NCBI RefSeq assembly: GCF_050920415.1
Contig: NZ_CP169309.1
Origin: Escherichia coli
GTDB lineage: Bacteria > Pseudomonadota > Gammaproteobacteria > Enterobacterales > Enterobacteriaceae
DNA length: 64,000 nucleotides
Direction: 5' to 3' (one strand)
Part shown: one piece after another, positions 11,474-58,544 of the stretch
Position numbering within the stretch: the first letter of the stretch is position 1
Layout of the letters: each line of letters opens with the position of its first letter
Translations under genes and position numbers: made by a program
Notes under the pieces: model-generated
Databases searched by the model: none
Told to the model about the DNA's origin: nothing
Seen by the model: only the letters and a program-made list of their open reading frames with translations

Positions 11474-11478
11474 GGCGA

Positions 11479-21651: not shown

Positions 21652-21751
21652 TTCCTGTTTTATTCAATGAGGGTTGCCCGGTAACCCTCATTGCTCATTG
21701 TTTCTTTTCTGTGTATCACCGTCATCATTCCCATCTGATAACCTATTGAAA

Positions 21752-22048
21752 TTAGCGATAGCCTTCTTCTGTATGCAGCAAGGCAAAAAGTTCTGCAACT
21801 CCATTGTTATTAACCGCACTGGTTACTAACACATTGTGCGCTCCAGCTTCCCGTAACCAACTTTTCACCAAAGATATTTGTTCCATACTGGCTAAATCTG
21901 CTTTGGTGACTACTCCAATGACCGGGCGATTCATTGACGAGGTAAAGCCTGGCGAAAAAGGTGACCACGGTGCGTCCGCATTAAGTACCAGCGCGATAAT
22001 GTCTGCTTCGCAGGCACTGACTAACAGAGCACTGTAGAGGCTGCGGTT
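21752..22048 (-). pseudogene. yoeF: Remnant of a EutP/PduV-family GTPase gene (yoeF-like); N-terminal P-loop part missing or scrambled
   Basis: The minus-strand frame reads ...[53 protein letters not shown]...LLHTEEGYR. An in-frame stop lies at 22049-22051 and there is no GxxGxGKT. Weak upstream traces (..HRQKAG..) appear in ORF 22049..22270. Confidence 0.6.
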
Positions 22049-22519
22049 TTATCGGTGAGGACTGGCAGCAAGATTTCCAGCCTTTTGACGGTGGGCCTGT
22101 GCAATCGTTATCAGATTCGTATAGCGATTATTCAGTGCTGCTATTGATAGCAGCTGAAAGCGAGATATCCGTACCAGAATAGCTCCCTCATTCTGAGGGA
22201 ACGACGGTAATTTTGATTGCAGAACACAATGCCCGTTTGCTGAATGGTCCGGCTGGTGGGGCTGTAGCATTAATCCATTATTTGAATGAAATCAGTCATG
22301 CCAGAGAAACCGCTGTCAATGACGCATTTTGTCGGACGTTAACACGAGGAAGTCTGGCTATTCCGCAATGCCATCTTCTTTCGTAATGGATTGAGAATGC
22401 TGGATTTTTAATTATATTACGCGCAGTATTAATCGCGTAAATGTTTTGCGGTCAGCAACAGTGGGGGAACCATTGTTCTGTTCAATGAATACCATCATAC
22501 AATTGAATCAGGAGTCGGT

Positions 22520-23065
22520 ATGATGATTTTGGTGACAGGTGGAGCACGGAGCGGGAAGAGTCGCCACGCAGAGGCGCTTATTGGGGACTCTTCACAGGTT
22601 CTGTATATCGCCACCTCGCAAATCCTTGATGATGAGATGGCTGCACGGATAGAACATCATCGGCAAGGCCGCCCGGCTCACTGGCGCACAGTGGAGCGCT
22701 GGCAACATCTTGATGAATTAATTCATGCAGACATTAACCCGAATGAGGCTGTGTTGCTGGAATGCGTTACCACAATGGTGACTAATCTGTTGTTTGATTA
22801 TGGCGGCGATAAAGACCCTGATGAATGGGATTATCAGGCGATGGAACAGGCGATTAATGCTGAGATTCAGTCGTTGATTGCTGCCTGCCAACGTTGCCCC
22901 GCAAAGGTTGTATTAGTGACTAACGAAGTGGGAATGGGGATTGTGCCGGAGAGTCGTCTGGCACGACATTTTCGTGATATTGCCGGGCGGGTAAATCAGC
23001 AGTTGGCCGCTGCGGCAAATGAAGTATGGCTGGTGGTTTCGGGTATTGGAGTAAAAATCAAATGA
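22520..23065 (+). CDS. cobU: Adenosylcobinamide kinase / adenosylcobinamide-phosphate guanylyltransferase
   Basis: 181-aa ORF with P-loop GGARSGKS. Confidence 0.95.
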
Positions 23066-23805
23066 GTAAATTATTTTGGGCGATGCTCTCATTTATTACG
23101 CGTCTGCCTGTACCGCGTCGCTGGTCCCAGGGACTGGATTTCGAGCATTATTCTCGCGGTATTATTGCTTTTCCTTTAATTGGATTATTGCTTGGCGCGA
23201 TTAGCGGGCTGGTCTTCATGGTGCTGCAGGCATGGTGTGGCGTACCACTGGCGGCATTGTTTAGCGTACTTGTGCTGGCGCTGATGACCGGGGGATTCCA
23301 CCTGGACGGCCTCGCTGATACCTGTGATGGCGTATTTTCTGCACGTAGCCGCGATCGCATGTTGGAAATCATGCGTGATAGCCGTTTAGGCACCCACGGC
23401 GGTCTGGCATTGATTTTTGTTGTACTGGCAAAGATTCTGGTGTTAAGCGAGCTGGCTTTGCGTGGCGAACCGATCCTTGCATCGCTGGCGGCAGCATGCG
23501 CGGTCAGCCGCGGGACTGCCGCATTATTGATGTATCGTCATCGTTATGCCCGAGAAGAAGGGCTTGGCAATGTGTTCATTGGCAAAATTGATGGGCGACA
23601 AACCTGCGTCACACTCGGTTTAGCCGCTATTTTTGCTGCCGTATTATTGCCTGGTATGCATGGCGTGGCTGCTATGTTGGTGACGATGGTGGCGATCTTC
23701 ATCCTCGGTCAGCTTCTCAAACGGACTCTGGGCGGGCAAACCGGCGATACGCTGGGAGCAGCCATAGAGCTTGGTGAACTGGTCTTCCTGCTGGCACTGC
23801 TATAA
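23062..23805 (+). CDS. cobS: Adenosylcobinamide-GDP ribazoletransferase (cobalamin synthase)
   Basis: ORF 23026..23805, with the start at [18 protein letters not shown] (247 aa) overlapping the cobU stop. Polytopic membrane protein. Confidence 0.94.
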
Positions 23806-23816
23806 AGAGACGTGAC

Positions 23817-24896
23817 ATGCAAACACTTGCCAATTTACTGAATACGATCCCTGCCATCGATCCTGCCGCTATGTCGCGTGCACAACGGCATATTGACGGG
23901 TTGCTCAAACCTGTTGGTAGCCTGGGAAGGCTGGAGGCGCTTGGCGTACAACTGGCGGGAATGCCGGGGTTGAATGGCATACCGCATGTGGGCAAAAAAG
24001 CGGTACTGGTTATGTGTGCCGATCACGGCGTCTGGGAGGAAGGGGTCGCTATTTCCCCAAAAGAAGTGACAGCCATTCAGGCTGAAAATATGACCCGCGG
24101 AACAACCGGCGTGTGTGTGCTGGCAGCACAAGCGGGCGCTTACGTCCACGTAATTGATGTTGGTATTGATACTGCTGAGCCTATCCCCGGGCTTATCAAC
24201 ATGCGTGTCGCACGAGGTAGCGGCAATATTGCTTCAGCTCCGGCAATGAGTCGCCGTCAGGCTGAAACGTTGCTTTTGGACGTCATATGCTATACGCGGG
24301 AGCTGGCAAAAAACGGTGTCACGCTGTTTGGTGTAGGTGAACTGGGGATGGCAAACACGACACCGGCAGCGGCGATAGTGAGCACAATCACTGGCCGGGA
24401 TCCTGAAGAAGTGGTTGGGATTGGCGCAAACCTGCCGACAGATAAACTGGCTAATAAAATTGATGTTGTGCGACGGGCGATTACGTTGAATCAACCAAAT
24501 CCGCAGGATGGCGTTGATGTCCTGGCAAAAGTGGGTGGATTTGATTTGGTCGGAATGGCTGCCGTGATGTTAGGCGCTGCGTCCTGCGGTTTACCGGTGT
24601 TGCTGGATGGATTTCTTTCTTATGCTGCCGCGCTCGCAGCCTGCCAGATGTCTCCTGCAATCAAACCGTATCTCATTCCTTCTCACCTGTCGGCAGAAAA
24701 AGGGGCGCGTATAGCGTTGTCGCATTTGGGGCTGGAGCCTTATCTCAATATGGATATGCGTTTAGGTGAGGGAAGTGGCGCAGCTCTGGCGATGCCCATC
24801 ATCGAAGCTGCCTGTGCGATATACAACAGCATGGGCGAACTTGCTGCCAGTAATATTGTTCTACCGGGGAATACGACTTCTGATTTGAACAGTTAA
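23817..24896 (+). CDS. cobT: Nicotinate-nucleotide:dimethylbenzimidazole phosphoribosyltransferase
   Basis: 359-aa ORF, third gene of cobUST. Confidence 0.95.
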
Positions 24897-25694
24897 AAAC
24901 GAAAAGTCTGATAAAAGCTATACTTATCGGATAGTATTCGCGACTTAGGAAAGGGACATGATGCGTCGTGTAAATATTTTTTGCTCATTTGCTCTACTTT
25001 TTGCCAGCCATAATAGCCTGGCGGTAACTTATCCATTACCTCCAGAGGGTAGCCGTTTAGTGGGACAGTCGCTTACTGTAACTGTTCCTGATCACAATAC
25101 CCAGCCGCTGGAGACTTTTGCCGCACAATACGGGCAAGGGTTAAGTAACATGCTGGAAGCGAATCCGGGGGCTGATGTCTTCTTACCGAAGTCTGGCTCG
25201 CAACTCACCATTCCGCAGCAACTGATTTTGCCCGCCACTGTTCGTAAAGGGATTGTGATTAACGTCGCTGAGATGCGTCTTTATTACTACCCGCCAGACA
25301 GTAATACTGTGGAAGTCTTTCCTATTGGTATCGGCCAGGCTGGGCGAGAAACCCCGCGTAACTGGGTGACTACCGTTGAACGTAAACAAGAAGCACCAAC
25401 CTGGACGCCAACGCCGAACACCCGGCGCGAATATGCGAAACGAGGGGAGAGTTTGCCCGCATTTGTTCCTGCGGGGCCTGATAATCCCATGGGGCTGTAC
25501 GCGATTTATATTGGCAGGCTATATGCCATCCACGGTACCAATGCCAATTTTGGTATTGGGCTCCGGGTAAGTCAGGGCTGTATTCGTCTGCGCAATGACG
25601 ATATCAAATATCTGTTTGATAATGTTCCTGTAGGTACTCGTGAACCGCCCCGGAAATCCTGGAGACTAAACTTCCTGAGAAAGAGGTAAACAGG

Positions 25695-27263: not shown

Positions 27264-27339
27264 TGGCTCCTCTGACTGGACTCGAACCAGTGACATACGG
27301 ATTAACAGTCCGCCGTTCTACCGACTGAACTACAGAGGA
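27264..27339 (-). tRNA. asnV: tRNA-Asn (GUU)
   Basis: The reverse complement reads TCCTCTGTAGTTCAGTCGGTAGAACGGCGGACTGTTAATCCGTATGTCACTGGTTCGAGTCCAGTCAGAGGAGCCA. 76 nt, anticodon loop CTGTTAA, encoded CCA end. Confidence 0.97.
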
Positions 27340-29670: not shown

Positions 29671-29746
29671 TGGCTCCTCTGACTGGACTCGAACCAGTGA
29701 CATACGGATTAACAGTCCGCCGTTCTACCGACTGAACTACAGAGGA
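29671..29746 (-). tRNA. asnU: tRNA-Asn (GUU)
   Basis: 76 nt, identical to the asnV copy. Confidence 0.97.
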
Positions 29747-31494: not shown

Positions 31495-31570
31495 TCCTCT
31501 GTAGTTCAGTCGGTAGAACGGCGGACTGTTAATCCGTATGTCACTGGTTCGAGTCCAGTCAGAGGAGCCA
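31495..31570 (+). tRNA. asnW: tRNA-Asn (GUU)
   Basis: 76 nt, identical to the other copies but on the plus strand. Confidence 0.97.
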
Positions 31571-37706: not shown

Positions 37707-45695
<7,989 letters not shown>

Positions 45696-46107
45696 GCTTA
45701 CCTTCCCTGAACGAGCTAACATAAATGCGCCCTTTCTAGCACAGCGAAAAAATATAAATCCTGATAGCAATATGATTGAAAATTAATAACTTTTCGTTAA
45801 GCAGTTTTGGGTGTGAGTTGCAAGAGGGGAGACTACTGAATAACTCAGTTTAATAATTGAGGGGGCAATGGTGACGAATATAGGGACGGAGTAGAGAAGA
45901 TAGTGCTGAACTCTTTGCCAGCAGAAGGTTATGTGGCACAAAAATAACCGTAACTTCTCACTCTCGACAGGAAAGCTGTAGACGGCGTCCATAACAAAAC
46001 GCCCCCAACCATAAGGTCGAGGGCGCTTAAGATGACAAACCCGCTCTTCGTTAAAGAATCAATGCTTAATGTAGATGAGTTGCATTGCACGATAAAAGCG
46101 AATTTTT

Positions 46108-46128
46108 AGAATTTGGCTCCTCTGACTG
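46108..46128 (-). repeat. Partial tRNA-Asn 3' end (att-site direct repeat of the asnT islet)
   Basis: GAATTTGGCTCCTCTGACTGG is identical to 54382..54402, which covers the 3' end of asnT plus 5 flanking nt. Similarity to the tRNA stops after GACTGG. Confidence 0.9.
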
Positions 46129-46462
46129 GGATCGCCGTAGCCATTAACAGGCTGATTGGTAAAGCTAAAAAAATTTGAGTTTGTCAAGACCACCAGAATG
46201 ACCACCATTTTAAAGTAACATTTGAAGTTTACTCAGTAGCACCTTTAGCTTCACTTACAATCAATTAACCTGTGAAGATAGCTGTACCTACAATCGCAAT
46301 AACTTATTACAGATCCGACGACAAACATCACCTGTTATCCACTCTGGCACTACCGTGCATGATAATCAATAAGTCGGGTGCTGGCTTGCAAGGCAATTGC
46401 GTTGTAATGTACCAAATCCCAGTTCGCCTTCACTCTAAAATGCCCCGACGTTTCGAACGCGT

Positions 46463-47341
46463 TTACGGTAAATAATGCGTGACAATCTGCAGGAACTCAT
46501 CCCGCATCTGGTTGTCGATTTTCGGATTCCATGCCACACCAATGTTCCATATGATCTGCTTTCCCCACAGAGTAATCAGCTTGACTCCTACAGGTAAAAA
46601 ATTCTCGACGCTGGCGGGTAGCAGCGCGAGACCATTCCCTCCGGCTATCAATGCTAGCAGGGAATGAATATCATTCGTCGCAGAGATTGGCTCAATGATG
46701 AGTTCATTATCCCGCAGGAACGCAGTCGTTTGCTCCGCCAGACAAGGGCTGACCGCTGGATCCATGCATAAAATCGGATAGATTGCCAGCGTACGCTGGA
46801 GATCGGTGGGATCAATATCGACGGCTACCGGGACAGCCAACACCAGATTTTCTTTATTTATTAAGCGAGAGGCCAATAATTCTGTTACCGGCATACGAAC
46901 AAAACCAGCATGCAGTTCACCTTCCATCAACATCCTAGCTTGTACGCTGGAGGCAATTTGGCTGATAACAACGTCGCAGTCGGGAAATTTCTGGCGAAAA
47001 GTGTTAATCCAAACTGGTGTGCTTTTAAACGAAGATATACCAAATCCGAGCACCAGTTTACCCGTACTCCCCTTTTGGATTTCTCTGGCGTAGGTTAAAA
47101 AATCGTGGTGGGATTTCAGCAACTCATAAGCTTTAGCAAACAACTGCCTGCCAACCATCGTCAACACTGCCCCGTGGCGACCACGCAGGAAAAGCTGCCC
47201 TCCGGTCTTCTGTTCGAGCATCTTGATCTGCTTTGAAAGCGCAGGTTGTGTCAGAAATAAAGCTTCTGCAGCTTTATTGTAGTTTCCCTTTTCCGCCAGT
47301 GTCACAAATGCACGCAGCAGCCTTATATCTATTCCTGACAT
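46463..47341 (-). CDS. LysR-family transcriptional regulator, divergent from the islet operon
   Basis: 292-aa ORF with N-terminal wHTH (LRAFVTLAEKGNYNKAAEALFLTQPALSKQIKMLE) and a C-terminal substrate-binding domain. Confidence 0.88.
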   Translation of the reverse strand: MSGIDIRLLRAFVTLAEKGNYNKAAEALFLTQPALSKQIKMLEQKTGGQLFLRGRHGAVLTMVGRQLFAKAYELLKSHHDFLTYAREIQKGSTGKLVLGFGISSFKSTPVWINTFRQKFPDCDVVISQIASSVQARMLMEGELHAGFVRMPVTELLASRLINKENLVLAVPVAVDIDPTDLQRTLAIYPILCMDPAVSPCLAEQTTAFLRDNELIIEPISATNDIHSLLALIAGGNGLALLPASVENFLPVGVKLITLWGKQIIWNIGVAWNPKIDNQMRDEFLQIVTHYLP

Positions 47342-47567
47342 TTATTGAATCCTGAAAAATTGGAATTATACAAATACTCGCAACAGATGACATGATGCGT
47401 AAAATGATTTACGCCGAGATCCCCTTGGTTTGTCAAACTCAGAAACGCCATACCTGCTGCTCTTGGTTCTATTTAACACTCACTAATGCGCAGGTTATTT
47501 ATAAAAATTGACCTCATAAATCATTCAAAAACATTAATTATATAAATACAATAAGGATTAAATATTT

Positions 47568-48167
47568 ATGCCAAATATTGCCGTTCTCACTAATGACCTG
47601 CAGTATGAGTTTACCTACAAAATAACACGCTCTCCAGAAATTCTGGCGCAAAAACTCGTCCAGTTTAATCAGTTTCTCGATGGCATTCGCGCTCTGGATC
47701 AATCCATTATCCACCTGCAACTTATCAACGATCCTAATGACCCGGCGGTACAAAAGCGCTATCGCAACCGCGAAGCGGGCATTCCTGCACTAGCTGGTCG
47801 CCCGGAAAACCAGATTATCGATAAAGTATACCGCCCCACAGATCTGGTTGTAGTCAAGGGCAGAGACAGCGGTTTTTTTAATAACGATCTCGACGAAATC
47901 CTCCAGCAACTCGGGGTAAAAACCGTAATCGTTACCGGGTTGCAAACTCATGTTTGCGTGCAGACCACTGCAGCGGATGCCTTCTTTCGCGGCTATAACG
48001 TCTGGGTACCGGGCGACTGCGTGTTCGCTCCTTCGTCCGAAGATACAGAGCGTGCACTCGAGTGGCTTGCCAGCTATTGCGCAACTGTAGCACCTTCTGC
48101 GGAAATTTTATCAATATTGCAAAAACAGAACGATCTGCCTGAGCGCGGCGAAAGGGAAGCATCATGA
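47568..48167 (+). CDS. Isochorismatase-family (cysteine) hydrolase
   Basis: 199-aa ORF. The family Asp-Lys-Cys triad appears in its usual contexts: IAVLTNDLQYEF, VVVKGRDSGFF and VIVTGLQTHVCVQTTAADA. Confidence 0.8.
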   Translation: MPNIAVLTNDLQYEFTYKITRSPEILAQKLVQFNQFLDGIRALDQSIIHLQLINDPNDPAVQKRYRNREAGIPALAGRPENQIIDKVYRPTDLVVVKGRDSGFFNNDLDEILQQLGVKTVIVTGLQTHVCVQTTAADAFFRGYNVWVPGDCVFAPSSEDTERALEWLASYCATVAPSAEILSILQKQNDLPERGEREAS

Positions 48168-49195
48168 GCTTAACCCAGACGCTAAATCATGAAGAGGTCG
48201 TTGTACTGGATCATGGCACCGGGGCGAAATTAAGCCGCGAGTTGGTTGAAAAAATTGCTAGCATTCTCGGTGACACCTATCTGGGCGTGATGGAAGATAG
48301 CGCGGTGCTGGGGTTATCCACCAGGCGAATTGCCTTCACCACCGACTCCTTTGTTGCCACGCCGCTGATTTTCGGCAACGGTGATATTGGCAAAATCGCC
48401 GTATGCGGCACCGTTAACGATCTCGCTGTCAGTGGGGCTCGTCCCCTTTACATCACACTCAGTCTTATTATTGAGGAAGGTATGCCGATGGCTGATCTGG
48501 TCAGAATCATCGAGTCCGTACGTGAAACGGCTCGTGAGGCAGAGGTCAAGATTGTCGCTGGTGATACCAAGGTCGTAGGTAAAGGTGAAGCAGATCGGCT
48601 GTTTATCAATACTGCTGGCATCGGCGTGTTTGAACATCCGCCAGTCTCAGTTAAGAACGTGCGTCCGGGGCAGAAAATAATCCTGAGCGGATATATCGGC
48701 AATCACTCGATTCACCTGCTGTCGATGCGGGAAGGATTGGGGTTCGAGCGAAATATTCTTAGTGATTGCGCACCGCTGAACCACATTATTGACAAACTTA
48801 TCAGCAACATCCCTGAAGGCAAAATAGCGTCAATGCGAGACGTTACGCGCGGTGGGCTGTCCGCTGTTTTACACGAACATGCGCGCGCAACAAATTATCA
48901 GATTCATTTCGACCAGCCATCTTTGCCCATACAGCCGGAAACCGCCATGGCAGCTAATATGCTGGGTGTTGACGTCATTAATCTCGCTAATGAAGGTTGT
49001 TTGTGCCTGTTTGTTGAACCTGAGTATGCTCAGAAGGTACTACATTTGCTGCAGGAGCATCCTGTCGGCAAGCACGCGACAATTATCGGCGAGATCACCG
49101 CTGTCTCGGGTACTGAAGTCTATATGATTGAAGCTGATGGAACACACACAGAAGTCGAGGAATTATATGGCGCAGAATTACCCAGACTCTGTTGA
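48164..49195 (+). CDS. HypE-like PurM-superfamily protein (carbamoyl dehydratase-like) ending in ...PRLC
   Basis: 343-aa ORF alignable along its length to my recollection of E. coli HypE (FTTDSFV, GNGDIGKIAVCGTVNDLAVSGA, IVAGDTKVV, LFINTAGIG, RDVTRGG, NLANEG). The C-terminal PRLC corresponds to the canonical PRIC. Its start overlaps the upstream stop (ATGA). Confidence 0.85.
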   Translation: MSLTQTLNHEEVVVLDHGTGAKLSRELVEKIASILGDTYLGVMEDSAVLGLSTRRIAFTTDSFVATPLIFGNGDIGKIAVCGTVNDLAVSGARPLYITLSLIIEEGMPMADLVRIIESVRETAREAEVKIVAGDTKVVGKGEADRLFINTAGIGVFEHPPVSVKNVRPGQKIILSGYIGNHSIHLLSMREGLGFERNILSDCAPLNHIIDKLISNIPEGKIASMRDVTRGGLSAVLHEHARATNYQIHFDQPSLPIQPETAMAANMLGVDVINLANEGCLCLFVEPEYAQKVLHLLQEHPVGKHATIIGEITAVSGTEVYMIEADGTHTEVEELYGAELPRLC

Positions 49196-51545
49196 GCTTC
49201 ACGAGACGCCGGAAACCCGGCGTTACCGCATCTGTGGGGTCGTTCAGGGCGTTGGATTTCGTCCCTTTGTTCACCGACTGGCCCGCACCTATGGTGCCAC
49301 CGGCTGGGTGTTAAACGATTCAGAAGGCGTGTTGCTTGAGCTGCAGGCATCCGGCACGGTTATTGCCAGAATCATGGACAAACTGGTGACCGAGGCACCA
49401 CCACTGGCAAAAATCATCAGTACGCAGGAAGTTAGCCCAACGGATACCAGAGCGCACTATGAAACGTTCAGCATCCGTAAAAGCCGCGATCATACCAGCA
49501 TGGACACGATTATCCCGCCAGATACCAACGTCTGCAGCGATTGCCTGCGCGAGATAAGCGATCCTGATAATCATCGTTATCGTTACGCTTTCACCAATTG
49601 CACCAATTGTGGGCCGCGCTATTCCATTATTCTTGGTATGCCTTACGATCGTGCCCAGAGCACTATGCGTAAATTCCCTTTATGTCCAACCTGTGAGCGT
49701 GAATACAACGATATTGAGGATCGACGCTATCATGCCCAGCCCAATGCCTGCCCAGTTTGCGGCCCACAGTTGCAACTTACCGATCGACAGGGCACATCCG
49801 TTCACACAGATGATATTGTCAAATTTGCCATTACGAAACTAAAAGAAGGCGGAATTCTTGCAATAAAGAGCCTTGGTGGCTTTCATCTCGTGGCCGATGC
49901 TTGCAATGAGAATGCTGTCAATGAACTTCGGCAACGCAAGCGAAGAGACGCCAAACCTTTTGCAGTGATGGTCGCGGATGTGGAAAGCGCGTCGCGTATT
50001 GCTTTCATCCCCCCCTGTAATCACAAATTGCTGGAAAGCCCGCAGCGTCCCATTGTCTTGTTGTATAAGCGCAACGTCCTGCTGGCGAGTACCGTTGCGC
50101 CACATAATCCGAACATCGGTGTAATGCTGCCTTCAACGCCGCTTCAGCATTTATTGCTGGAAGACCCGTCTCTGCCGATCCTGATTATGACCAGCGGTAA
50201 TATTTCCGGTCATCCGATCGTCTTTGACAACGACATGGCAATTAAGCAACTCGGGAAAATCGCGGATTACTTCATTCTGAATAATCGCGATATTCATACG
50301 CGTGTTGACGATTCGGTGGTCCGCACGGTGTTTCTCAACGACGCCATTACCTCGCAGCTATCGTTTTTGCGCCGCTCCCGCGGTTACGCGCCATACCCTA
50401 TTCATCTACCTTACGCAGTGGATTCCGTTATCGCGCTCGGGGCGGAGCTAAAAAACACGATCAGCATCGGCAAAGGAAAACAGGTTTTTCTGAGCCAGCA
50501 TATTGGCGATCTTAAGAATAACGTGACTTTTAAATCACATATCGAATGTATTGATCATCTTCAAAACCTGCTGAACGTGAAGGCAAATGTCGTGGCCTGC
50601 GATTTGCATCCCTCTTTCCGCTCTACCCGGCATGCGCTGGAGAATTTAGAGCATCAGGTTGTTCAGGTTCAACACCATCACGCGCATATGGCATCCTGCA
50701 TGGCGGAAAATGGCCTGTCAGGTACTACTCTAGGCGTAATTTTTGACGGTACAGGATATGGCACCGACGGCACCATTTGGGGCGGTGAGTTTCTCGTTGG
50801 TGATTTCGAAAAATTCGAGCGTGCAGGATGCTTGCGTTCAATGACCCTGCCCGGAGGCGATCGGGCAGTTAAAGAGCCGCTGCGCGTCGGCATCTCCTTA
50901 CTGGTGGAAACCTTCGGCGAAGATATCAGTACGCTCGCAGTACCAGGCTTGCAGGCGCTCCAGCCTCAGCAGCGCGATATATTCAGTAAAATGGCGACCA
51001 GAAAAATCAACACCACCACGACCAGCAGCATGGGCAGACTATTTGACGGCATCGCCGCGCTGATGGGCGTTTGCACTCAGGTGGAGTACGAAGCCCAGGC
51101 GGCCATTGAACTGGAAGCGCTGCTGCAGTGTAAACTTCATATGACGGCTCCGTTCAGCTACATCATTGCCGATGTCGAGAATAAGCTCGAGGTGGATTAT
51201 CGCCCGATGATAAGGGAACTGGTGCAATGCTTCAGCCAGCCCGGTTTTGATATGGCCGAACTAAGTCGGCGCTTTCACTCTACCATCGTCGACATGATTT
51301 GCGAGGTCTGTAAACGTCTGGTGGCACGCTCAGGCACGCAACAAATTGTCCTGAGCGGCGGCGTGTTCTGCAATGAATTCATCCTCGTTAATTCTCTTAA
51401 CAGTCTGGAGTCTTGTGGATTCCGGCCTTACAGCCATCAGTTAGTTCCGACTAACGATGGTGGTATTTCATTGGGGCAAGTGGTTATTGCTACCGCATAC
51501 ACTCGCGCAACGCGCAATAAAAATCTGGAGAGAGAAAATGCATAG
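49167..51545 (+). CDS. HypF-like carbamoyltransferase with all four domains (acylphosphatase, 2 x Zn-finger, YrdC-like, Kae1-like)
   Basis: ORF 49128..51545, with the ATG at 49167 preferred (GAGG SD 6 nt upstream). Motifs: VQGVGFRPF (acylphosphatase); CSDC-x18-CTNC and CPTC-x18-CPVC; ILAIKSLGGFHLVADA (YrdC-like); QVQHHHAHMASC (Kae1/HypF metal site). Confidence 0.88.
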   Translation: MAQNYPDSVELHETPETRRYRICGVVQGVGFRPFVHRLARTYGATGWVLNDSEGVLLELQASGTVIARIMDKLVTEAPPLAKIISTQEVSPTDTRAHYETFSIRKSRDHTSMDTIIPPDTNVCSDCLREISDPDNHRYRYAFTNCTNCGPRYSIILGMPYDRAQSTMRKFPLCPTCEREYNDIEDRRYHAQPNACPVCGPQLQLTDRQGTSVHTDDIVKFAITKLKEGGILAIKSLGGFHLVADACNENAVNELRQRKRRDAKPFAVMVADVESASRIAFIPPCNHKLLESPQRPIVLLYKRNVLLASTVAPHNPNIGVMLPSTPLQHLLLEDPSLPILIMTSGNISGHPIVFDNDMAIKQLGKIADYFILNNRDIHTRVDDSVVRTVFLNDAITSQLSFLRRSRGYAPYPIHLPYAVDSVIALGAELKNTISIGKGKQVFLSQHIGDLKNNVTFKSHIECIDHLQNLLNVKANVVACDLHPSFRSTRHALENLEHQVVQVQHHHAHMASCMAENGLSGTTLGVIFDGTGYGTDGTIWGGEFLVGDFEKFERAGCLRSMTLPGGDRAVKEPLRVGISLLVETFGEDISTLAVPGLQALQPQQRDIFSKMATRKINTTTTSSMGRLFDGIAALMGVCTQVEYEAQAAIELEALLQCKLHMTAPFSYIIADVENKLEVDYRPMIRELVQCFSQPGFDMAELSRRFHSTIVDMICEVCKRLVARSGTQQIVLSGGVFCNEFILVNSLNSLESCGFRPYSHQLVPTNDGGISLGQVVIATAYTRATRNKNLERENA

Positions 51546-52278
51546 TTCTGCGAACCGTATTGCCGCTGTTTTATTCGATATGGATGGTGTCCTTATTGAT
51601 TCCAATGCGGTGATTGAGCGCGGCTGGGCTGAAGGCGCACAGATGTTTGGCAAGACGCTAACGGAAGAGGATATCGTCAGGCATATTCACGGACAGCCCG
51701 GCCCGCATACCATTCGCGCCCTGTTCAGCGACCTTTCCCTGGAAGATCAAAAGAAGGTCCAGTCACATATCATCCACGTTGAAAATACCGCTGATTACGA
51801 CCCGATCCCTGGAGTTAGCGAACTTATCCAGGCGTTGCATAAGGCTGGCATCAGTGTGGGGATTGTCACTAGCGGCTGGCGGTCGAAAATCGATCGTATT
51901 ATGGAGATGCTGCAAATCACGCCCTGTATTTCAGTGATTGTCGAACGTGATGATGTCGTGCGCGGCAAGCCTTATCCCGATCCTTATCTGCTTGCCGCAG
52001 AGCGGTTTCATCTTGCACCGTCCAGAACACTGGTCTTTGAGGATTCAAGAAGCGGCGTAACATCTGCTGTTACAGCAGGCGCAATTTGTGTTGGCATCGG
52101 TACAGACAGTCTGAAAGAGTGCGGTGCCGTGCTTGCAATTACAGATTTTCGTAATGTGAAAATCACCTCACAGACAGGCGAAAAAGTAGTGATTGCCTTT
52201 ACTCCAGAGCACCAGATGGAGATGGAAACTCAGAGCTCTCGTAAGAAAACATCCTGTACCACAAGAGAAGAGTGCTAA
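51538..52278 (+). CDS. HAD-superfamily hydrolase (subfamily IA, beta-phosphoglucomutase/sugar-phosphatase-like)
   Basis: ORF 51457..52278, with the ATG at 51538 (MHSSANRIAAVLFDMDGVLIDS) overlapping the hypF-like stop (ATGCATAG). HAD motifs: DMDG, TSG, K-x-PYPDPY, FEDS. Confidence 0.85.
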   Translation: MHSSANRIAAVLFDMDGVLIDSNAVIERGWAEGAQMFGKTLTEEDIVRHIHGQPGPHTIRALFSDLSLEDQKKVQSHIIHVENTADYDPIPGVSELIQALHKAGISVGIVTSGWRSKIDRIMEMLQITPCISVIVERDDVVRGKPYPDPYLLAAERFHLAPSRTLVFEDSRSGVTSAVTAGAICVGIGTDSLKECGAVLAITDFRNVKITSQTGEKVVIAFTPEHQMEMETQSSRKKTSCTTREEC

Positions 52279-53471
52279 TGAATATCACACAGAAGGGACG
52301 CTGGGCTGTCACTATGCTATTTTTTATCAATGGCTTCGTCACCGGAGGTTGGGCTGTGCAAATTGCACAGCTTGTACCACGCTTTGGCGTGACCGACAAA
52401 GTGATCGGCCATTTAATTCTGATCTTCGGATTCGGTGCACTAACCATGATGCCCATATCAGGCATTCTGATGGAAAAGATGGGGACACAAATCGTAACGC
52501 GTATTTTTGCCCTTGCAGCCTCCCTGGCATTAATTCCGGTTGGTTTAGCCACCACCCCATTAGTGTTGATGCCAGCGTTATTTGTTCTTGGTGCGATGAT
52601 TGGTGCCATGAATGTAGCGATGAACTCGAATGCCGTGGCGGTGGAGAGATCACTCTCACAAGCGATTTTATCCTCCTGCCATTGCTTCTGGAGTATCGGC
52701 CTATTTGCGGCGGGCTCGATAGGCGGCCATCTTGTTGAACAATTTGGCTTTTTGACGCATATCTTTTTGATTAGTGCCGTGGCCTTAATACTGACGCTGA
52801 TTATCGCTCCGGCCATTTTTAAAGACATACAGACGGTTAAATCCACCAGCAGACAGACCACCCGGTTGCCTCGTTCTCCGGCGATTTATCTGATTGGATT
52901 GATGGCTTTTCTGGCCATGATCCCTGAATGCGCTGTTGTTGACTGGTCGTCACGCTATTTGATTAAAAATCTCAATGCAAAAACAGAAATCGCCAGCCTT
53001 GCCTTCGCCTGCTTTGCTGTAGCAATGGCCTTGTTTCGCTTTATGGGTGACGTGATCCGCAACCGCTTCGGCGCAATATTAATTATACGAATCTCCAGCT
53101 TACTGGCAGGCGCTAGCCTATTGTTGAGCGCACTGGCACACAATCCCTGGCAGGCGATCTGCGCATTTACCTTAGCGGGAATCGGCATCGCCAACCTTGT
53201 GCCCATTGTCTTTTCCGCAGCGGGAAATCAGCCCAATATTTCCACCAACACAGGAATGAGCATTGCCACAACCATTGGGTATTTAGGCACGCTAATGGCC
53301 CCTGCGCCTATTGGCTATATTGCGGAAATAACCGGTTTTCCAGTGGTTTATTGCGGACTAGCTTTCATGTCGGGAATTATCTTTTTGCTGGCACCACTGG
53401 TTCGGGGGGCAGAAATCTCTGTACAGCGGCAGCGAGCCTCAAACAAACACCAGAATACCGGAGCGTTGTAA
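52278..53471 (+). CDS. MFS transporter
   Basis: ORF 52272..53471, with the ATG at 52278 overlapping the HAD stop (TAATG). Roughly 12 hydrophobic helices throughout. Confidence 0.85.
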   Translation: MNITQKGRWAVTMLFFINGFVTGGWAVQIAQLVPRFGVTDKVIGHLILIFGFGALTMMPISGILMEKMGTQIVTRIFALAASLALIPVGLATTPLVLMPALFVLGAMIGAMNVAMNSNAVAVERSLSQAILSSCHCFWSIGLFAAGSIGGHLVEQFGFLTHIFLISAVALILTLIIAPAIFKDIQTVKSTSRQTTRLPRSPAIYLIGLMAFLAMIPECAVVDWSSRYLIKNLNAKTEIASLAFACFAVAMALFRFMGDVIRNRFGAILIIRISSLLAGASLLLSALAHNPWQAICAFTLAGIGIANLVPIVFSAAGNQPNISTNTGMSIATTIGYLGTLMAPAPIGYIAEITGFPVVYCGLAFMSGIIFLLAPLVRGAEISVQRQRASNKHQNTGAL

Positions 53472-53922: not shown

Positions 53923-54060
53923 ATGAGCAAATTAAGTAGTGAAATGAAGGCCCTGACGAAGAAAGCAGGCGGCAGCTTCAAAACGGTAAATGACCGTATC
54001 CATATTACAAAACGGTTCAGTGAGCATTTACGCGAACTGAACATCCAGATCCGGCGGGTA
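53923..54060 (+). pseudogene. Possible N-terminal stump of a second tyrosine-recombinase-type gene
   Basis: MSKLSSEMKALTKKAGGSFKTVNDRIHITKRFSEHLRELNIQIRRV resembles, from memory only, the N-terminal domain of a class of island or plasmid integrases. The frame then runs into antisense sequence of the P4-type integrase stump. Confidence 0.3.
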
Positions 54061-54225
54061 TGCGCCAAGACTGACTCTGGATTCTTTTCCGTTGAAACGA
54101 TATTTGAGATACCAGATGCGTGAACCGCCCGGATTGACGAGCAGATACAGACCGTGAGAGTCGGAGAGTTTTACCGGACGGGAAGAGGTTTTTAACTTGC
54201 GGATTTTAGAATCGTTTAAAGACAT
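54055..54225 (-). pseudogene. N-terminal ~57-codon stump of a P4-type (tRNA-associated) integrase
   Basis: MSLNDSKIRKLKTSSRPVKLSDSHGLYLLVNPGGSRIWYLKYRFNGKESRVSLGAYP matches the conserved DUF4102/Arm-type N-terminus of P4-like integrases. It starts ~160 bp from the asnT 3' end. No catalytic domain follows. Confidence 0.8.
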
Positions 54226-54386
54226 TTGGGGGTCACTCCAGAATCGAACCAAACTGACCCCAGATCTGACCACCAAATTATCCCGATGCGGAGAGAAAAC
54301 CAGATACGCACCGGGGAGGATTTTCACGCTAACTTACTGAACCGTAAACAAATAGAGATGTACAGATAAGCATGAAAACTTGAATT

Positions 54387-54462
54387 TGGCTCCTCTGACT
54401 GGACTCGAACCAGTGACATACGGATTAACAGTCCGCCGTTCTACCGACTGAACTACAGAGGA
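54387..54462 (-). tRNA. asnT: tRNA-Asn (GUU)
   Basis: 76 nt, identical to the other three copies. Adjacent to mtfA as in K-12. Confidence 0.95.
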
Positions 54463-57001: not shown

Positions 57002-57652
57002 TCAATGAGACATCATCTCCTCGACCACTTCTTCGCTACTCAACTGATAGGGATAATACGTTGGCCAGTTTTCCATTTCATTCAATAAAGATTGCTGTGA
57101 ATCATTACCCATAAAAATGTGAAAATGAGATGATTTTCGTGGTGCAATTATATGATCGCTAAATTGTATATATTTAGGGGCTTTGCTTTCAGGATCTTTA
57201 CATTCGAATAAGTAACGAACGCCTTTCTTGCCTGATTTATAGGTGAGTATTTTGTAGCCATCGTAATCATATTTACAGGATGTAGTTTCGTTATTTATAT
57301 GGAATTCAATAATGCCGTCCTCAATACCAATCATTTCGATATCTGTCGAGTAGCCTTTCTGATAATAATCTTTAACTTCTGCGAATGTTTTGGTTTTATC
57401 TGCATTCGCTTTCTTTCGAAAGACGGGGTCAAGCTTGCCATTTTGCAGTAAGGGATAAACGGATTGCCAGACTCCATCCCAGTCACTGAGCGTTCGGTTT
57501 TGTACATTGGCATCATCAAAAACACCGTTAGCCGCTTTTTGTTCGACCTCTGTTAAGGGTTTGCCGTGTGAGTGATGACCATGCGAAAAGGCAGGAGCGC
57601 TAACAATAAAGACACCTAAAGCAATAGCCAGTTTATTAAGACGAATCGCCAA
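57002..57652 (-). CDS. zinT: Periplasmic zinc/cadmium-binding protein
   Basis: 216-aa ORF with a signal peptide followed by a His-rich HGHHSHG stretch. Confidence 0.94.
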
Positions 57653-57688
57653 AACAGTTTCCTCCAGAGTTATTGTACATGACGTGTT

Positions 57689-57705
57689 ATGTTATATTGT
57701 AACAT
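57689..57705. promoter_or_regulatory. Zur box in the zinT promoter
   Basis: ATGTTATATTGTAACAT: the dyad ATGTTA-N5-TAACAT lies ~40 bp upstream of the zinT start. Confidence 0.75.
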
Positions 57706-57908
57706 ATGACGAAATGCAATAACTCTTAGGAAACAAGAGCATAGTTTTCTCAGGTGTATTTACCTATCTTATTGAAATGAAATAAATTATGTCGATGATT
57801 TGAGGTTGATGACAAACGAAACATAACTTGATGCGATCTGTGTGGGCCGGATAAGGCGCTCACACCGCATCCGGCAGGGATAACGCGTACTTTGTCGGCA
57901 ATATGAAG

Positions 57909-58544
57909 TTATAGAGATGATTTGTTGTGAACCTGCTTGCGTAATCGGTTGAAAAGGGAAAGTAGCTTTTTATACCGTAAGGCTAAAAGCAGTACAGCCA
58001 GCCCAGCGTAGATGAGTGGCTGCGGTGAAATAATCTTCACTGACCACAGATAATGTATTGGAGCCAGGATCGCGACAAGATAGACGAAGTTATGCAACTG
58101 TTGCCAGTGTTTGCCGAGTTTTCGCTGCATCGCCTGGGTTGAAGTGAACGCTAAAGCAAGCAAAATTACCCAACTAATAATACCTAACGTTAAATAAGGT
58201 CGGGTGATTAACTCCTTGCCTAATAACGCCAGATTATTCACGCCCAGCTCCAGTAATGCGTAACTGGTTAAATGCAGTGTCGCCCAGGCAAAGCACCATA
58301 AGCCTAACAGGCGTCGAGTCCGCATCAATAACGGCTGTTTTGCGTAACGTGCCAGAGGTGTAATTAACAAGGTCGCCAGCAAAAATTTCAGTGCAGTGCG
58401 TCCGGTAAAATGCTGAATATCTTTCACCGGATCGGCTCCTAGTCCACCGTGATTGATCGCCCAGGCAAGCCAGAGCAACGGCAACAATCCGGCAAGATGC
58501 AGGCAAAGTTTTAGCCATGTCACCTGTTTTGCTGTCAGACGCAT
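57909..58544 (-). CDS. msrQ: Methionine sulfoxide reductase haem-binding membrane subunit
   Basis: 211-aa polytopic ORF immediately downstream of msrP. Confidence 0.93.

What the first reader, a model, noticed from the sequence alone, without database searches (positions are those of the whole stretch)
49167..51545. HypF-like protein retains every catalytic module of a bona fide HypF
Reading the translation directly shows all four modules:
- an acylphosphatase-type motif (ICGVVQGVGFRPFVHRLA)
- two C-x2-C-x18-C-x2-C zinc fingers (CSDC...CTNC and CPTC...CPVC)
- a YrdC-like segment (GGILAIKSLGGFHLVADA)
- the Kae1-like metal site QHHHAH

The protein is therefore not a truncated or decayed paralogue. 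It is predicted to be competent for carbamoyl-phosphate hydrolysis, carbamoyl-adenylate formation and carbamoyl transfer. It is about 40 residues longer than the ~750 aa I recall for canonical E. coli HypF.
Basis: partly seen in the sequence, partly recalled or inferred. Interest (0 to 1): 0.7.

Follow-up and report, generated by a model that had tools for sequence, protein, structure and literature searches.

The report
Second HypF in a non-hydrogenase operon
The gene is a fully intact second copy of the hydrogenase-maturation enzyme HypF, but it lies in a rare 8-kb E. coli islet next to its own variant HypE and a cysteine hydrolase, a trio found in many bacteria without hydrogenase genes nearby, so it probably supplies a carbamoyl- or cyano-derived group for something other than hydrogenase.

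Summary
Window 49167-51545 (+) encodes a 792-aa HypF. It scores 788 bits on NCBIfam TIGR00143 (cut-off 466) and matches the C. subterraneus HypF structure at E = 5e-191. Every known ligand is present, and 157 of 167 columns invariant in canonical HypFs are retained. The 42 extra residues are scattered small indels.

It is not the E. coli housekeeping HypF, to which it is 39% identical. It lies in an 8.27-kb islet at tRNA-Asn (asnT), present in 16 of 5426 complete E. coli genomes. The operon is LysR | cysteine hydrolase - HypE - HypF - HAD phosphatase - MFS transporter.

The hydrolase-HypE-HypF trio recurs in 65 of the 80 closest related loci fetched, from Enterobacterales to Streptomyces and Sorangium. 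None has hypC or hypD within 10 kb. Many sit beside amine-making genes (diaminobutyrate, diaminopropionate or amino-sugar routes), peptide ligases and exporters.

HypF itself is unspecialised. The associated HypE forms a separate clade (PRLC instead of PRIC, and the canonical Lys274 is lost).

Most likely the trio is a hydrogenase-independent module that passes a carbamoyl-phosphate-derived C-N unit to a small molecule. The product is unknown. I found no paper describing the trio.

The parts
46109..46134 (.). Left boundary of the islet: a degenerate direct repeat of the tRNA-Asn 3' end, resembling an attachment site.
   Evidence: It matches 54382-54407 at 24 of 26 nt, with a spacing of 8273 bp. 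In islet-free E. coli, homology to the yeeJ side runs straight into tRNA-Asn at this point.
46463..47341 (-). LysR-family regulator, divergent from the operon.
   Evidence: Pfam HTH_1 plus LysR_substrate. RefSeq annotates it the same way. It is conserved next to the operon in Enterobacterales and Burkholderia. dN/dS is 0.14.
47342..47567 (.). Divergent intergenic control region of 226 bp.
   Evidence: Promoter-like hexamers are present on both strands (47524-47552 +, 47393-47365 -). These are consensus matches only, and the count does not exceed shuffled sequence.
47568..48167 (+). Isochorismatase-like cysteine hydrolase (ILH, 199 aa), first gene of the operon.
   Evidence: Pfam Isochorismatase 3.2e-32. 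Its best solved relatives are an N-carbamoylsarcosine-amidase-related protein and RutB. D10, K97 and C130 are present. C130 is invariant in 66 of 66 trio ILHs. The subfamily is small: 7 representative clusters at E <= 1e-30 among 1.84 billion proteins. Its stop overlaps the hypE start.
48164..49195 (+). Variant HypE (343 aa), ending in PRLC.
   Evidence: NCBIfam TIGR02124 hypE scores 415 bits against a cut-off of 252. It is 39% identical to K-12 HypE. The DX4GAXP motif is present (DLAVSGARP). Clade-specific changes are PRIC>PRLC, FPGG>FGNG and NEGK>NEGC.
49167..51545 (+). HypF carbamoyltransferase (792 aa), the finding itself. It overlaps the hypE end by 29 nt.
49221..49475 (+). HypF acylphosphatase domain (aa 19-103), with R32 and N50.
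   Evidence: Pfam PF00708, 2.7e-16. Alignment to K-12 R23/N41.
49530..49760 (+). Two HypF zinc fingers (C123/126/145/148 and C173/176/195/198).
   Evidence: Pfam zf-HYPF, two stretches, 1.2e-31. Motif positions.
49839..50339 (+). HypF YrdC/Sua5-like domain (aa 225-391), the carbamoyl-adenylate-forming site.
   Evidence: Pfam PF01300, 1.2e-41. The motifs IKSLGGFHL, RKRRDAKPFAVM and TSGN align with K-12 and with 3VTH.
50421..51479 (+). HypF Kae1-like domain (aa 419-771), with metal ligands H503, H507, D527 and D764.
   Evidence: Pfam HypF_C plus HypF_C_2. Ligand positions.
51538..52278 (+). HAD-family (sugar-)phosphatase-like hydrolase. It overlaps the hypF stop by 8 nt.
   Evidence: Pfam HAD_2, 3.8e-32. 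The best NCBIfam matches are sugar phosphatase and the beta-phosphoglucomutase family, all below their cut-offs. It follows HypF in 9 related loci. dN/dS is 0.15.
52278..53471 (+). MFS transporter, last gene of the operon.
   Evidence: Pfam MFS_1. RefSeq start. Orthologues are present in Sodalis, Citrobacter and Escherichia sp..
53923..54225 (.). Two integrase pseudogene fragments.
   Evidence: RefSeq annotation of the identical islet lists a phage integrase N-terminal fragment and an Arm DNA-binding fragment, both marked incomplete.
54387..54462 (-). tRNA-Asn (GTT), the integration site and right boundary of the islet.
   Evidence: ARAGORN. Its 3' end carries the direct repeat.

Best explanation
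**Shown by sequence.** The ORF encodes an intact HypF. It is a horizontally acquired second copy, 39% identical to the E. coli core HypF. It is the third gene of a translationally coupled operon: cysteine hydrolase - HypE - HypF - HAD phosphatase - MFS transporter, with a divergent LysR regulator. The operon sits in an 8.27-kb integrative islet at tRNA-Asn (asnT).

**Inferred from family chemistry.**
1. HypF hydrolyses carbamoyl phosphate in its acylphosphatase domain.
2. It makes carbamoyl-AMP in the YrdC-like domain.
3. It transfers the carbamoyl group at the Kae1-like site to the C-terminal cysteine (C343) of the islet's own HypE.
4. HypE uses ATP to dehydrate the S-carbamoyl group to an S-cyano (thiocyanate) group.

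**Inferred from gene context.** The activated C-N unit is not delivered to the HypC-HypD iron scaffold. It goes to, or is processed by, the co-conserved cysteine hydrolase through its invariant Cys130, and ends up on a small molecule. The most likely acceptor is a primary amine, giving an N-cyano, guanidino or ureido product.

In the enterobacterial version the acceptor is probably a phosphorylated amino sugar such as glucosamine-6-phosphate. HAD would then dephosphorylate the product and MFS would export it. This last part is speculative.
For: **HypF is intact.**

**It is a second copy.** The canonical hypF is in 5425 of 5426 complete E. coli genomes. The islet is in 16 of 5426.

**The islet is a mobile insertion.** Direct repeats, tRNA-Asn and integrase remnants mark its ends.

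**The genes are under purifying selection.** dN/dS against Kluyvera is 0.08-0.15 for all five genes compared.

**The trio is conserved without hydrogenase genes.**
- 65 of the 80 closest loci from one-genome-per-species contigs have ILH, HypE and HypF within 6 kb of one another, usually adjacent, with no hypC or hypD within 10 kb.
- The 10 loci with hypA-B-F-C-D-E have no ILH.

**HypE, not HypF, is specialised.**
- The HypE tree splits trio from canonical in 50 of 50 bootstraps.
- Trio HypE ends in PRLC in 66 of 66 sequences. All 8 canonical genomic HypEs and all 4 solved HypEs end in PRIC.
- The canonical Lys274 is never kept, and FPGG becomes FGNG.
- Published work calls PRIC common to all HypE and needed for delivery to HypCD (PMC12130793).
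- HypF has only one group-discriminating site. One trio-clade HypF sits in a canonical hyp cluster.

**Neighbours make amines in four independent ways.**
- SbnA and SbnB, both above their NCBIfam cut-offs, in Cystobacter.
- A diaminobutyrate-transaminase-family gene in 18 loci. In one Streptomyces locus it is joined by Asp kinase and Asp-semialdehyde dehydrogenase.
- A GlmS isomerase-domain-only protein in Burkholderia.
- A GFO-family oxidoreductase plus a DegT sugar aminotransferase in a Saccharibacteria MAG.

**Other natural-product-type neighbours.** NRPS or ATP-grasp ligases, exporters, and a nitrilase-superfamily gene.

**The ILH cysteine matters more than the hydrolase triad.** All 8 Nocardia ILHs have lost the Asp and Lys of the triad but keep the Cys.
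Against: - No biochemical data exist for any member of the trio. The product and the role of the hydrolase are guesses.
- 27 of 65 trio loci have no recognisable amine, ligase or HAD neighbour. The small-molecule theme is therefore not universal.
- The E. coli islet contains no amine-making gene.
- HypF is indistinguishable from canonical HypFs, and E. coli has HypC, HypD and four hydrogenases elsewhere. Cross-talk with hydrogenase maturation cannot be excluded.
- In Paraburkholderia phymatum the trio lies beside the uptake-hydrogenase cluster and is co-regulated with it by NifA.
- Whole genomes were not checked for absence of hydrogenases.
- The canonical comparison set is small: 11 HypF and 8+4 HypE.
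Confidence: 0.55

Rival explanations
1. The pair is a spare or condition-specific cyanide-ligand supply for [NiFe]-hydrogenase maturation. The islet HypF and HypE would feed E. coli's own HypC/HybG-HypD scaffold under conditions sensed by the LysR regulator. The hydrolase, HAD and MFS genes would be unrelated passengers.
For: - HypF keeps 157 of 167 canonical-invariant columns and has only one discriminating site.
- HypE passes the curated hypE model and keeps the Pro, Arg and C-terminal Cys of the tail.
- A trio-clade HypF sits in a canonical hyp cluster in L071.
- In P. phymatum the trio lies next to hupSL and is NifA-dependent, as the hydrogenase genes are.
Against: - No hypC or hypD lies within 10 kb in any of the 65 trio loci.
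- The ILH-HypE-HypF order is conserved across phyla, often with overlapping reading frames.
- HypE forms a separate clade that lacks canonical invariants: Lys274, the Pro-Gly pair, and the Ile of PRIC.
- The neighbours are NRPS, ATP-grasp and amine-biosynthesis genes.
- P. phymatum pBPHY02 already has a separate hypF in its hydrogenase cluster and a second HypE match on the same plasmid.
- E. coli already has hypF in 5425 of 5426 genomes.
Confidence: 0.15
2. The trio generates a free small nitrogen-carbon species such as cyanide, thiocyanate, cyanate or cyanamide. The hydrolase cysteine would attack HypE-S-CN and release the product. That product would either act as a toxin or signal, or add chemically to pathway intermediates.
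For: - In Nocardia and several other lineages the trio stands alone, with no substrate-supplying neighbour. This fits a product made only from carbamoyl phosphate.
- A glutathione S-transferase sits next to the trio in Cystobacter. GSTs are known to react with organic thiocyanates; this is from my own knowledge.
- A nitrilase-superfamily gene is in the Burkholderia cluster.
Against: - Three ATP-consuming steps per molecule is costly compared with HcnABC-type cyanogenesis.
- The HAD phosphatase and dedicated exporters in the enterobacterial operon suggest an organic phosphorylated intermediate.
- The recurring amine-making neighbours are not explained.
Confidence: 0.15
3. The trio transfers a carbamoyl group only. 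HypE would act as a carbamoyl carrier protein without dehydration. The hydrolase would use its Cys to move or hydrolyse the thiocarbamate and make ureido compounds.
For: - The closest characterised relatives of the hydrolase act on carbamoyl or ureido groups: N-carbamoylsarcosine amidase, RutB and biuret hydrolase.
- The residue next to the catalytic Glu of HypE is changed (NEGK>NEGC/N), which could alter the dehydration step.
Against: - HypE keeps its PurM-type ATP site (DX4GAXP) and scores far above the hypE cut-off.
- Known N- and O-carbamoylations use far simpler enzymes. Examples are the OTCase-like and TobZ/NodU-type enzymes, the latter consisting of YrdC plus Kae1 alone (PMC6022934).
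- Keeping an ATP-dependent HypE would therefore be unexplained.
Confidence: 0.1
4. The islet is a decaying remnant of a foreign island, and the genes no longer do anything useful in E. coli.
For: - The integrase is reduced to two pseudogene fragments.
- The islet is rare, in 16 of 5426 genomes.
Against: - All reading frames are intact.
- dN/dS is 0.08-0.15 against Kluyvera at dS of about 0.6.
- The 16 E. coli copies are at least 99% identical to the window sequence, and 15 of them cover at least 80% of the 7.1-kb query.
- The same five-gene layout is found in Sodalis and Citrobacter, and without the MFS gene in Enterobacter and Buttiauxella.
Confidence: 0.03

Closest known systems
Canonical HypF-HypE of [NiFe]-hydrogenase maturation (E. 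coli HypF b2712 and HypE b2730; structures 3TSP, 3VTH/3VTI, 4G9I, 2I6R, 2Z1E)
   Same: - HypF has the same four-module architecture and all ligands. It matches 3VTH at E = 5e-191 and passes the curated HypF and HypE models.
- HypE has the PurM-type ATP motif and a C-terminal Cys on a Pro-Arg-x-Cys tail.
- The carbamoylation and dehydration chemistry is therefore very probably the same.
   Different: - Only 39% identical to the E. coli proteins.
- No hypA, B, C or D, and no hydrogenase genes, in the operon or within 10 kb in 65 related loci.
- Always paired with an isochorismatase-like cysteine hydrolase.
- HypE is a distinct clade with PRLC, FGNG and loss of Lys274.
- Embedded in natural-product-like or transporter operons.
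TobZ / NodU / CmcH-type O-carbamoyltransferases (fused Kae1-like and YrdC-like domains acting on small molecules)
   Same: They use carbamoyl phosphate through carbamoyl-AMP to decorate secondary metabolites, and they share the YrdC-like and Kae1-like catalytic domains (PMC6022934).
   Different: They lack the acylphosphatase and zinc-finger modules, have the opposite domain order, and carbamoylate the small molecule directly. Here the protein is a full HypF that passes the HypF equivalog model and is coupled to a HypE carrier/dehydratase.
Isochorismatase-like cysteine hydrolases acting on carbamoyl or ureido compounds (N-carbamoylsarcosine amidase, RutB, biuret hydrolase BiuH)
   Same: The operon's first gene has the fold and, in E. 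coli, the Asp-Lys-Cys triad. These enzymes are its best characterised matches.
   Different: - Scores are far below every curated cut-off, for example RutB at 54 bits against 378.
- It belongs to a very small subfamily tied to HypE-HypF.
- The Nocardia members lack the Asp and Lys but keep the Cys.
PurM-superfamily amide activation (PurL and PurM: iminophosphate intermediate attacked by a nitrogen nucleophile)
   Same: HypE belongs to this superfamily and uses the same ATP-dependent activation of a carbamoyl or amide oxygen (Pfam AIRS and AIRS_C). This gives a chemical precedent for forming amidine- or guanidine-type C-N bonds; the precedent is from my own knowledge.
   Different: No evidence here shows that the trio HypE accepts an external amine. 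This is an analogy, not a membership claim.

Membership tests
HypF carbamoyltransferase (NCBIfam TIGR00143) | Whole-protein score above the curated equivalog cut-off | tested here: met
   788.2 bits against a cut-off of 466.1, covering profile positions 2-740 of 741.
HypF carbamoyltransferase (NCBIfam TIGR00143) | N-terminal acylphosphatase domain with the catalytic Arg and Asn (E. coli R23, N41) | tested here: met
   Pfam PF00708, 2.7e-16. R32 and N50 align with R23 and N41.
HypF carbamoyltransferase (NCBIfam TIGR00143) | Two C-x2-C-x18-C-x2-C zinc fingers | tested here: met
   C123/126/145/148 and C173/176/195/198. Pfam zf-HYPF, two stretches.
HypF carbamoyltransferase (NCBIfam TIGR00143) | YrdC/Sua5-like nucleotide-binding domain | tested here: met
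   PF01300, 1.2e-41, aa 225-391. Its motifs are conserved against 3VTH and K-12.
HypF carbamoyltransferase (NCBIfam TIGR00143) | Kae1-like domain with the HxxxH + Asp + Asp metal site (E. coli H475, H479, D502, D727) | tested here: met
   H503, H507, D527 and D764. HypF_C plus HypF_C_2.
HypF carbamoyltransferase (NCBIfam TIGR00143) | Carbamoyl-phosphate-dependent ATP cleavage and S-carbamoylation of HypE | not testable with these tools
   Requires an enzyme assay.
Hyp machinery for [NiFe]-hydrogenase maturation (functional system) | Genomic association with hypC/hypD (and hypA/B or hydrogenase structural genes) | tested here: not met
   None are in the islet. None lie within 10 kb in the 65 related trio loci, whereas 10 canonical loci show hypA-B-F-C-D-E. 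E. coli has these genes elsewhere.
HypE carbamoyl dehydratase (NCBIfam TIGR02124), for the adjacent gene | Score above the cut-off, the PurM-type DX4GAXP motif, and a C-terminal Cys | tested here: met
   415 bits against a cut-off of 251.6. DLAVSGARP is present and the protein ends in Cys.
HypE carbamoyl dehydratase (NCBIfam TIGR02124), for the adjacent gene | C-terminal PR(I/V)C motif, described as common to all HypE | tested here: not met
   PRLC in the window and in 66 of 66 trio HypEs. PRIC in 8 of 8 canonical genomic and 4 of 4 solved HypEs. The motif is as stated in PMC4506123 and PMC12130793.
Isochorismatase-like cysteine hydrolases, for the first gene | Asp-Lys-Cys catalytic triad | tested here: met
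   D10, K97 and C130 are in the window protein. C130 is present in 66 of 66 sequences, Asp in 56 of 66 and Lys in 58 of 66. The exceptions are the 8 Nocardia sequences.
Known anti-phage defence systems (PADLOC) | Any operon protein matching a defence-system model | tested here: not met
   No hit at E <= 0.01 for the five proteins.

The most novel reading that the evidence does not exclude
The cysteine hydrolase - HypE - HypF trio is a previously unrecognised, hydrogenase-independent 'cyano-donor' module. It would build a protein-bound thiocyanate from carbamoyl phosphate and use it as an electrophilic C-N unit to N-cyanate or guanidinylate primary amines in natural-product pathways. Candidate acceptors are diaminobutyrate, diaminopropionate and amino sugars. 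The E. coli islet would be a minimal, exportable version acting on an amino-sugar phosphate.
Probability: 0.3. Interest if true: 0.85.

Novelty: new variant of a known kind. Interest (0 to 1): 0.62.

Why it matters
HypE and HypF are treated in the literature as dedicated makers of the cyanide ligands of [NiFe]-hydrogenases. A 2025 paper calls the PRIC tail 'common to all HypE proteins', and a 2025 review of the field had no match for 'secondary metabol', 'lacking hydrogenase' or 'other than hydrogenase'.

A conserved, selected and horizontally mobile HypE-HypF pair would mean this carbamoyl-to-cyano chemistry has been recruited for a second purpose. The pair has swapped the HypCD scaffold for a cysteine hydrolase, and it sits in peptide-ligase, NRPS and transporter clusters from E. 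coli to Streptomyces and Sorangium.

Three consequences would follow:
- A new enzymatic route to cyano-, guanidino- or ureido-bearing metabolites.
- A simple genome-mining handle: HypE ending in PRLC next to an isochorismatase-like gene.
- Correction of the routine annotation of these genes as 'hydrogenase expression/formation' proteins.

For E. coli, it marks a rare strain-specific operon that may export an unknown metabolite.

Tried and rejected
**Literature.**
- Nine full-text searches combined HypE/HypF with isochorismatase, cysteine hydrolase, nitrile, cyanamide, natural product, ATP-grasp, diamino acids, orphan/no hydrogenase and paralogue names.
- No paper describes the trio. The only hit is the P. 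phymatum NifA transcriptome, which lists the genes in a table without comment.
- The two HypF structure papers are not in the held library. Residue numbers rest on my memory, checked against motif positions.

**Anti-phage defence.** No PADLOC hits.

**Separate HypF clade.** Only partly true. The triad/canonical split is absent from the NJ tree and from all 50 bootstraps. One canonical-context HypF (L071) nests inside the trio clade, and only one residue discriminates the groups. The specialisation is in HypE, not HypF.

**Cys279 as a resolving cysteine.** I considered that the Cys replacing Lys274 in HypE releases cyanide by disulfide formation. I dropped this as a general mechanism, because only 53 of 66 trio HypEs have Cys there and the rest have Asn or Ser.

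**Extra 42 residues as an added module.** Rejected. They are scattered indels.

**Plasmid carriage in Citrobacter.** The 82-kb 'plasmid' carries housekeeping genes and is probably a chromosomal piece. Carriage on Paraburkholderia, Streptomyces and Salmonella plasmids does look real.

**Promoter and terminator scans.** They gave no more sites than shuffled sequence.

**Structure prediction.** Not run, because a solved homologue covers residues 16-777 at E = 5e-191.

Full report
**1. The observation**

Window 49167-51545 (+) is an open reading frame of 792 codons starting with ATG. A longer TTG-initiated ORF starts at 49128. RefSeq annotates the same coordinates as hypF in an identical E. coli islet.

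- Pfam finds an acylphosphatase domain, two HypF zinc fingers, a Sua5/YrdC domain and the two HypF Kae1-like subdomains, with E-values from 1e-16 to 1e-76.
- The curated NCBIfam equivalog model for HypF scores 788 bits against a cut-off of 466.
- The best solved relative is the Caldanaerobacter subterraneus HypF (3VTH), at E = 5.5e-191 over residues 16-777. The Thermococcus and E. coli HypF structures follow.

**2. Are the catalytic residues there?**

I aligned the protein to K-12 HypF. The E. coli residue numbers below are recalled from the published structures, and I checked them against motif positions.

| E. coli HypF | Islet HypF | Role |
|---|---|---|
| R23, N41 | R32, N50 | acylphosphatase catalytic residues |
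| C109/112/131/134 and C159/162/181/184 | C123/126/145/148 and C173/176/195/198 | two zinc fingers |
| H475, H479, D502, D727 | H503, H507, D527, D764 | Kae1-site metal ligands |

As a test that does not depend on memory, I aligned 11 HypFs from canonical hyp clusters. Of the 167 invariant columns, the window protein keeps 157. The 10 differences are conservative: R>H, P>A, T>S, A>V, Y>F, and V/L>I.

The 42 residues by which it exceeds K-12 HypF are 14 scattered indels of at most 9 aa. The median length of its 120 closest relatives is 785 aa.

The length remark has no significance.

**3. Where it sits**

The window is E. coli chromosome. The protein is only 39% identical to the core E. coli HypF. 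That core gene is present in 5425 of 5426 complete genomes, while the region studied here is in 16 of 5426.

The region is an 8.27-kb islet inserted at tRNA-Asn, between mtfA and the yeeJ-like adhesin.
- Its right edge is the 3' end of the tRNA (54387-54462, minus strand).
- Its left edge is a 24/26-nt direct repeat of that end, at 46109-46134.
- Two integrase pseudogene fragments lie next to the tRNA.
- In islet-free strains yeeJ abuts the tRNA.

The islet carries a divergent LysR regulator and one operon of five genes whose starts and stops overlap:
1. isochorismatase-like cysteine hydrolase (ILH)
2. HypE
3. HypF
4. HAD phosphatase
5. MFS transporter

There is no hypA, B, C or D and no hydrogenase gene in the islet. 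Against the Kluyvera orthologues (84-89% amino-acid identity, dS about 0.6), dN/dS is 0.08-0.15 for all five genes compared: LysR, ILH, HypE, HypF and HAD. The genes are therefore maintained by selection.

**4. The same trio elsewhere**

The closest relatives of this HypF (60-86% identity) come from Kluyvera, Sodalis, Buttiauxella, Citrobacter, Enterobacter, Salmonella, Burkholderia, Trinickia, Gilliamella, Sorangium and Cystobacter.

I fetched the 80 best loci from one-genome-per-species contigs and searched their ORFs with the window proteins and the K-12 Hyp proteins.
- **Trio loci:** 65 have ILH, HypE and HypF within 6 kb of one another, usually adjacent, and no hypC or hypD within 10 kb.
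- **Canonical loci:** 10 show the hypA-B-F-C-D-E order and no ILH. These are Geobacter-type, a Burkholderiales MAG and a Clostridiales MAG.
- **Unclear:** 5 are cut by a contig end or are ambiguous.

Trio hosts include Streptomyces, Kitasatospora, Nocardia, Solirubrobacterales, Hafnia, Photobacterium, Paraburkholderia and a Saccharibacteria MAG.

The trio-type HypE also occurs on plasmids of Salmonella, Paraburkholderia, Rhizobium and Streptomyces. There is a clear identity gap (at least 56% versus at most 44%) to ordinary plasmid-borne HypEs.

The ILH subfamily is very small: 7 representative clusters at E <= 1e-30 among 1.84 billion proteins.

**5. Which protein is specialised?**

Not HypF. 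Only one position discriminates trio from canonical HypFs. In a neighbour-joining tree, one HypF from a canonical hyp cluster (L071) nests inside the trio clade.

HypE is specialised.
- The trio/canonical split is recovered in 50 of 50 bootstraps.
- All 66 trio HypEs end in PRLC. All 8 canonical genomic HypEs and all 4 solved HypEs end in PRIC.
- The FFPGG motif becomes F-G-N-G.
- The Lys after the conserved Asn-Glu-Gly (K274 in E. coli) is never retained. It is Cys in 53, Asn in 12 and Ser in 1.

Published work describes PR(I/V)C, or PRIC, as common to all HypE proteins and needed for handing cyanide to HypCD (PMC4506123; PMC12130793).

In the ILH, Cys130 is invariant (66 of 66). The Asp and Lys of the hydrolase triad are replaced by Gly and Arg in all eight Nocardia sequences. 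This suggests that the cysteine, rather than classical amide hydrolysis, is the conserved requirement.

**6. What the neighbours say**

Accessory genes differ by lineage but repeat a theme.

| Lineage | Neighbours of the trio |
|---|---|
| Cystobacter | NRPS, glutathione S-transferase, ABC exporter, SbnA and SbnB (2,3-diaminopropionate synthesis, both above NCBIfam cut-offs) |
| Sorangium | NRPS and ABC exporter |
| Streptomyces | Asp kinase, Asp-semialdehyde dehydrogenase, diaminobutyrate-transaminase-family enzyme, three ATP-grasp amino-acid ligases, glutamate mutase, exporters |
| Hafnia, Photobacterium | ATP-grasp ligase, the same transaminase family, EamA-family protein |
| Burkholderia | HAD, GlmS isomerase-domain-only protein, amidohydrolase, MFS, nitrilase-superfamily enzyme |
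| Saccharibacteria MAG | GFO-family oxidoreductase and DegT sugar aminotransferase |
| Enterobacterales | LysR, HAD and usually MFS |

Counting over the 65 loci:
- 22 have a recognisable amine-supplying gene.
- 18 have ATP-grasp ligases.
- 9 have the HAD gene.
- 27 have none of these (including all eight Nocardia loci). Two of the 27 are the Sorangium loci, where my NRPS query failed its coverage filter although an NRPS lies directly upstream.

The association is therefore suggestive, not universal.

**7. Most likely mechanism**

*Shown:* an intact HypF and a HypE with an ATP site and a C-terminal Cys, co-translated with a Cys-bearing hydrolase-fold protein, a phosphatase and an exporter.

*Inferred from family chemistry:* HypF converts carbamoyl phosphate via carbamoyl-AMP into S-carbamoyl-HypE, and HypE dehydrates this to S-cyano-HypE.

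*Inferred from context:* the hydrolase-fold protein replaces HypCD as the recipient or processor of this group, and the C-N unit ends on a small-molecule amine.
- The product would be an N-cyano, guanidino or ureido compound.
- In enterics the acceptor may be an amino-sugar phosphate that HAD then dephosphorylates and MFS exports.

My confidence:
- about 0.85 that HypF is a working HypE carbamoyltransferase
- about 0.55-0.6 that the operon serves a hydrogenase-independent small-molecule function
- about 0.3 for the amine-cyanation or guanidinylation detail

**8. Rivals**

- **(a) A spare cyanide supply for hydrogenases.** HypF's ordinariness, L071, and the P. phymatum plasmid support this. On that plasmid the trio abuts the hup cluster and is NifA-dependent. 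Against it: that plasmid has a separate hypF in its hydrogenase cluster and a second HypE match, and the HypE changes and contexts point elsewhere.
- **(b) Release of free cyanide, thiocyanate or cyanamide.** This fits the stand-alone trios.
- **(c) Carbamoyl transfer without dehydration.**
- **(d) A decaying remnant.** The selection data contradict this.

**9. Novelty**

The conserved hydrolase-HypE-HypF trio, with its PRLC-type HypE and non-hydrogenase contexts, is not described in any paper I could find in nine searches. A 2025 review of [NiFe]-cofactor biosynthesis had no match for 'secondary metabol', 'lacking hydrogenase' or 'other than hydrogenase'.

I rate it a new variant of a known kind. 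Absence from the held library does not prove that it is unpublished.

Noticed in passing
L094 (Paraburkholderia phymatum pBPHY02, record 18316-25618): On this symbiotic plasmid the cluster ectB - GNAT - cysteine hydrolase - hypE - hypF lies divergently next to the hupSL/hyp uptake-hydrogenase cluster. A second diaminobutyrate transaminase is listed at the next locus number. The hydrogenase cluster has its own hypF. Published RNA-seq tables list ectB, GNAT, hypE and hypF of this cluster as strongly NifA-dependent in nodules (PMC8305402).
   Followed up: partly
L071 (Burkholderiales MAG), 9959-16083: A HypF belonging to the trio clade sits beside a canonical, convergently oriented hypE-D-C-B-A cluster with no cysteine hydrolase. 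This suggests that HypF is interchangeable between the two systems.
   Followed up: partly
L036, L044, L045, L046, L048, L051, L055, L072 (Nocardia): All eight Nocardia copies of the trio hydrolase have Gly and Arg in place of the catalytic Asp and Lys, but keep the Cys. In L036, the one Nocardia locus whose neighbours I scanned with Pfam, the trio stands alone among apparently unrelated genes.
   Followed up: partly
L058, L059, L062-L065, L070, L073, L074, L084 (Solirubrobacterales): A leucyl-tRNA-synthetase-like gene (853 aa) lies immediately upstream of the trio and divergent from it in ten loci. It could be housekeeping, or a resistance copy against the pathway product.
   Followed up: no
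window 37707-45770 (-): A very large Ig-like-domain inverse-autotransporter adhesin (YeeJ-like; 2687-aa ORF, annotated as 2662 aa in the matching genome) borders the islet. Most other E. coli genomes match the boundary stretch tested (window 45000-46129, which includes the 5' end of this gene) at only 90-95% identity.
   Followed up: no
window 27264-27292, 29671-29699, 31542-31570: Three further exact copies of the tRNA-Asn 3' end lie upstream. They are presumably the other asn tRNA genes of this region, which is a known hot spot for island insertion in E. coli (from my own knowledge).
   Followed up: no
window 57652-57909 versus L001 23343-24571: The matching genome NZ_CP169399.1 has an IS2 between zinT and msrQ that the window lacks. 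The window therefore comes from a different islet-positive strain.
   Followed up: no
L093 (NZ_CP056259.1, labelled a Citrobacter freundii plasmid): This 82-kb 'plasmid' carries housekeeping genes (ndh, nagZ, thiK, lpoB, hinT) around the LysR-hydrolase-hypE-hypF-HAD-MFS operon and is typed non-mobilizable. It looks like a chromosomal segment. In Citrobacter the operon sits at a different chromosomal site from E. coli.
   Followed up: no
L092 (Kluyvera cryocrescens), 5281-12911: The closest orthologous operon (86% HypF identity) lies next to amn and the cobUST genes. It has a MatE exporter on the opposite strand instead of the MFS gene, and no integrase gene among those called in the 18-kb locus.
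   Followed up: no
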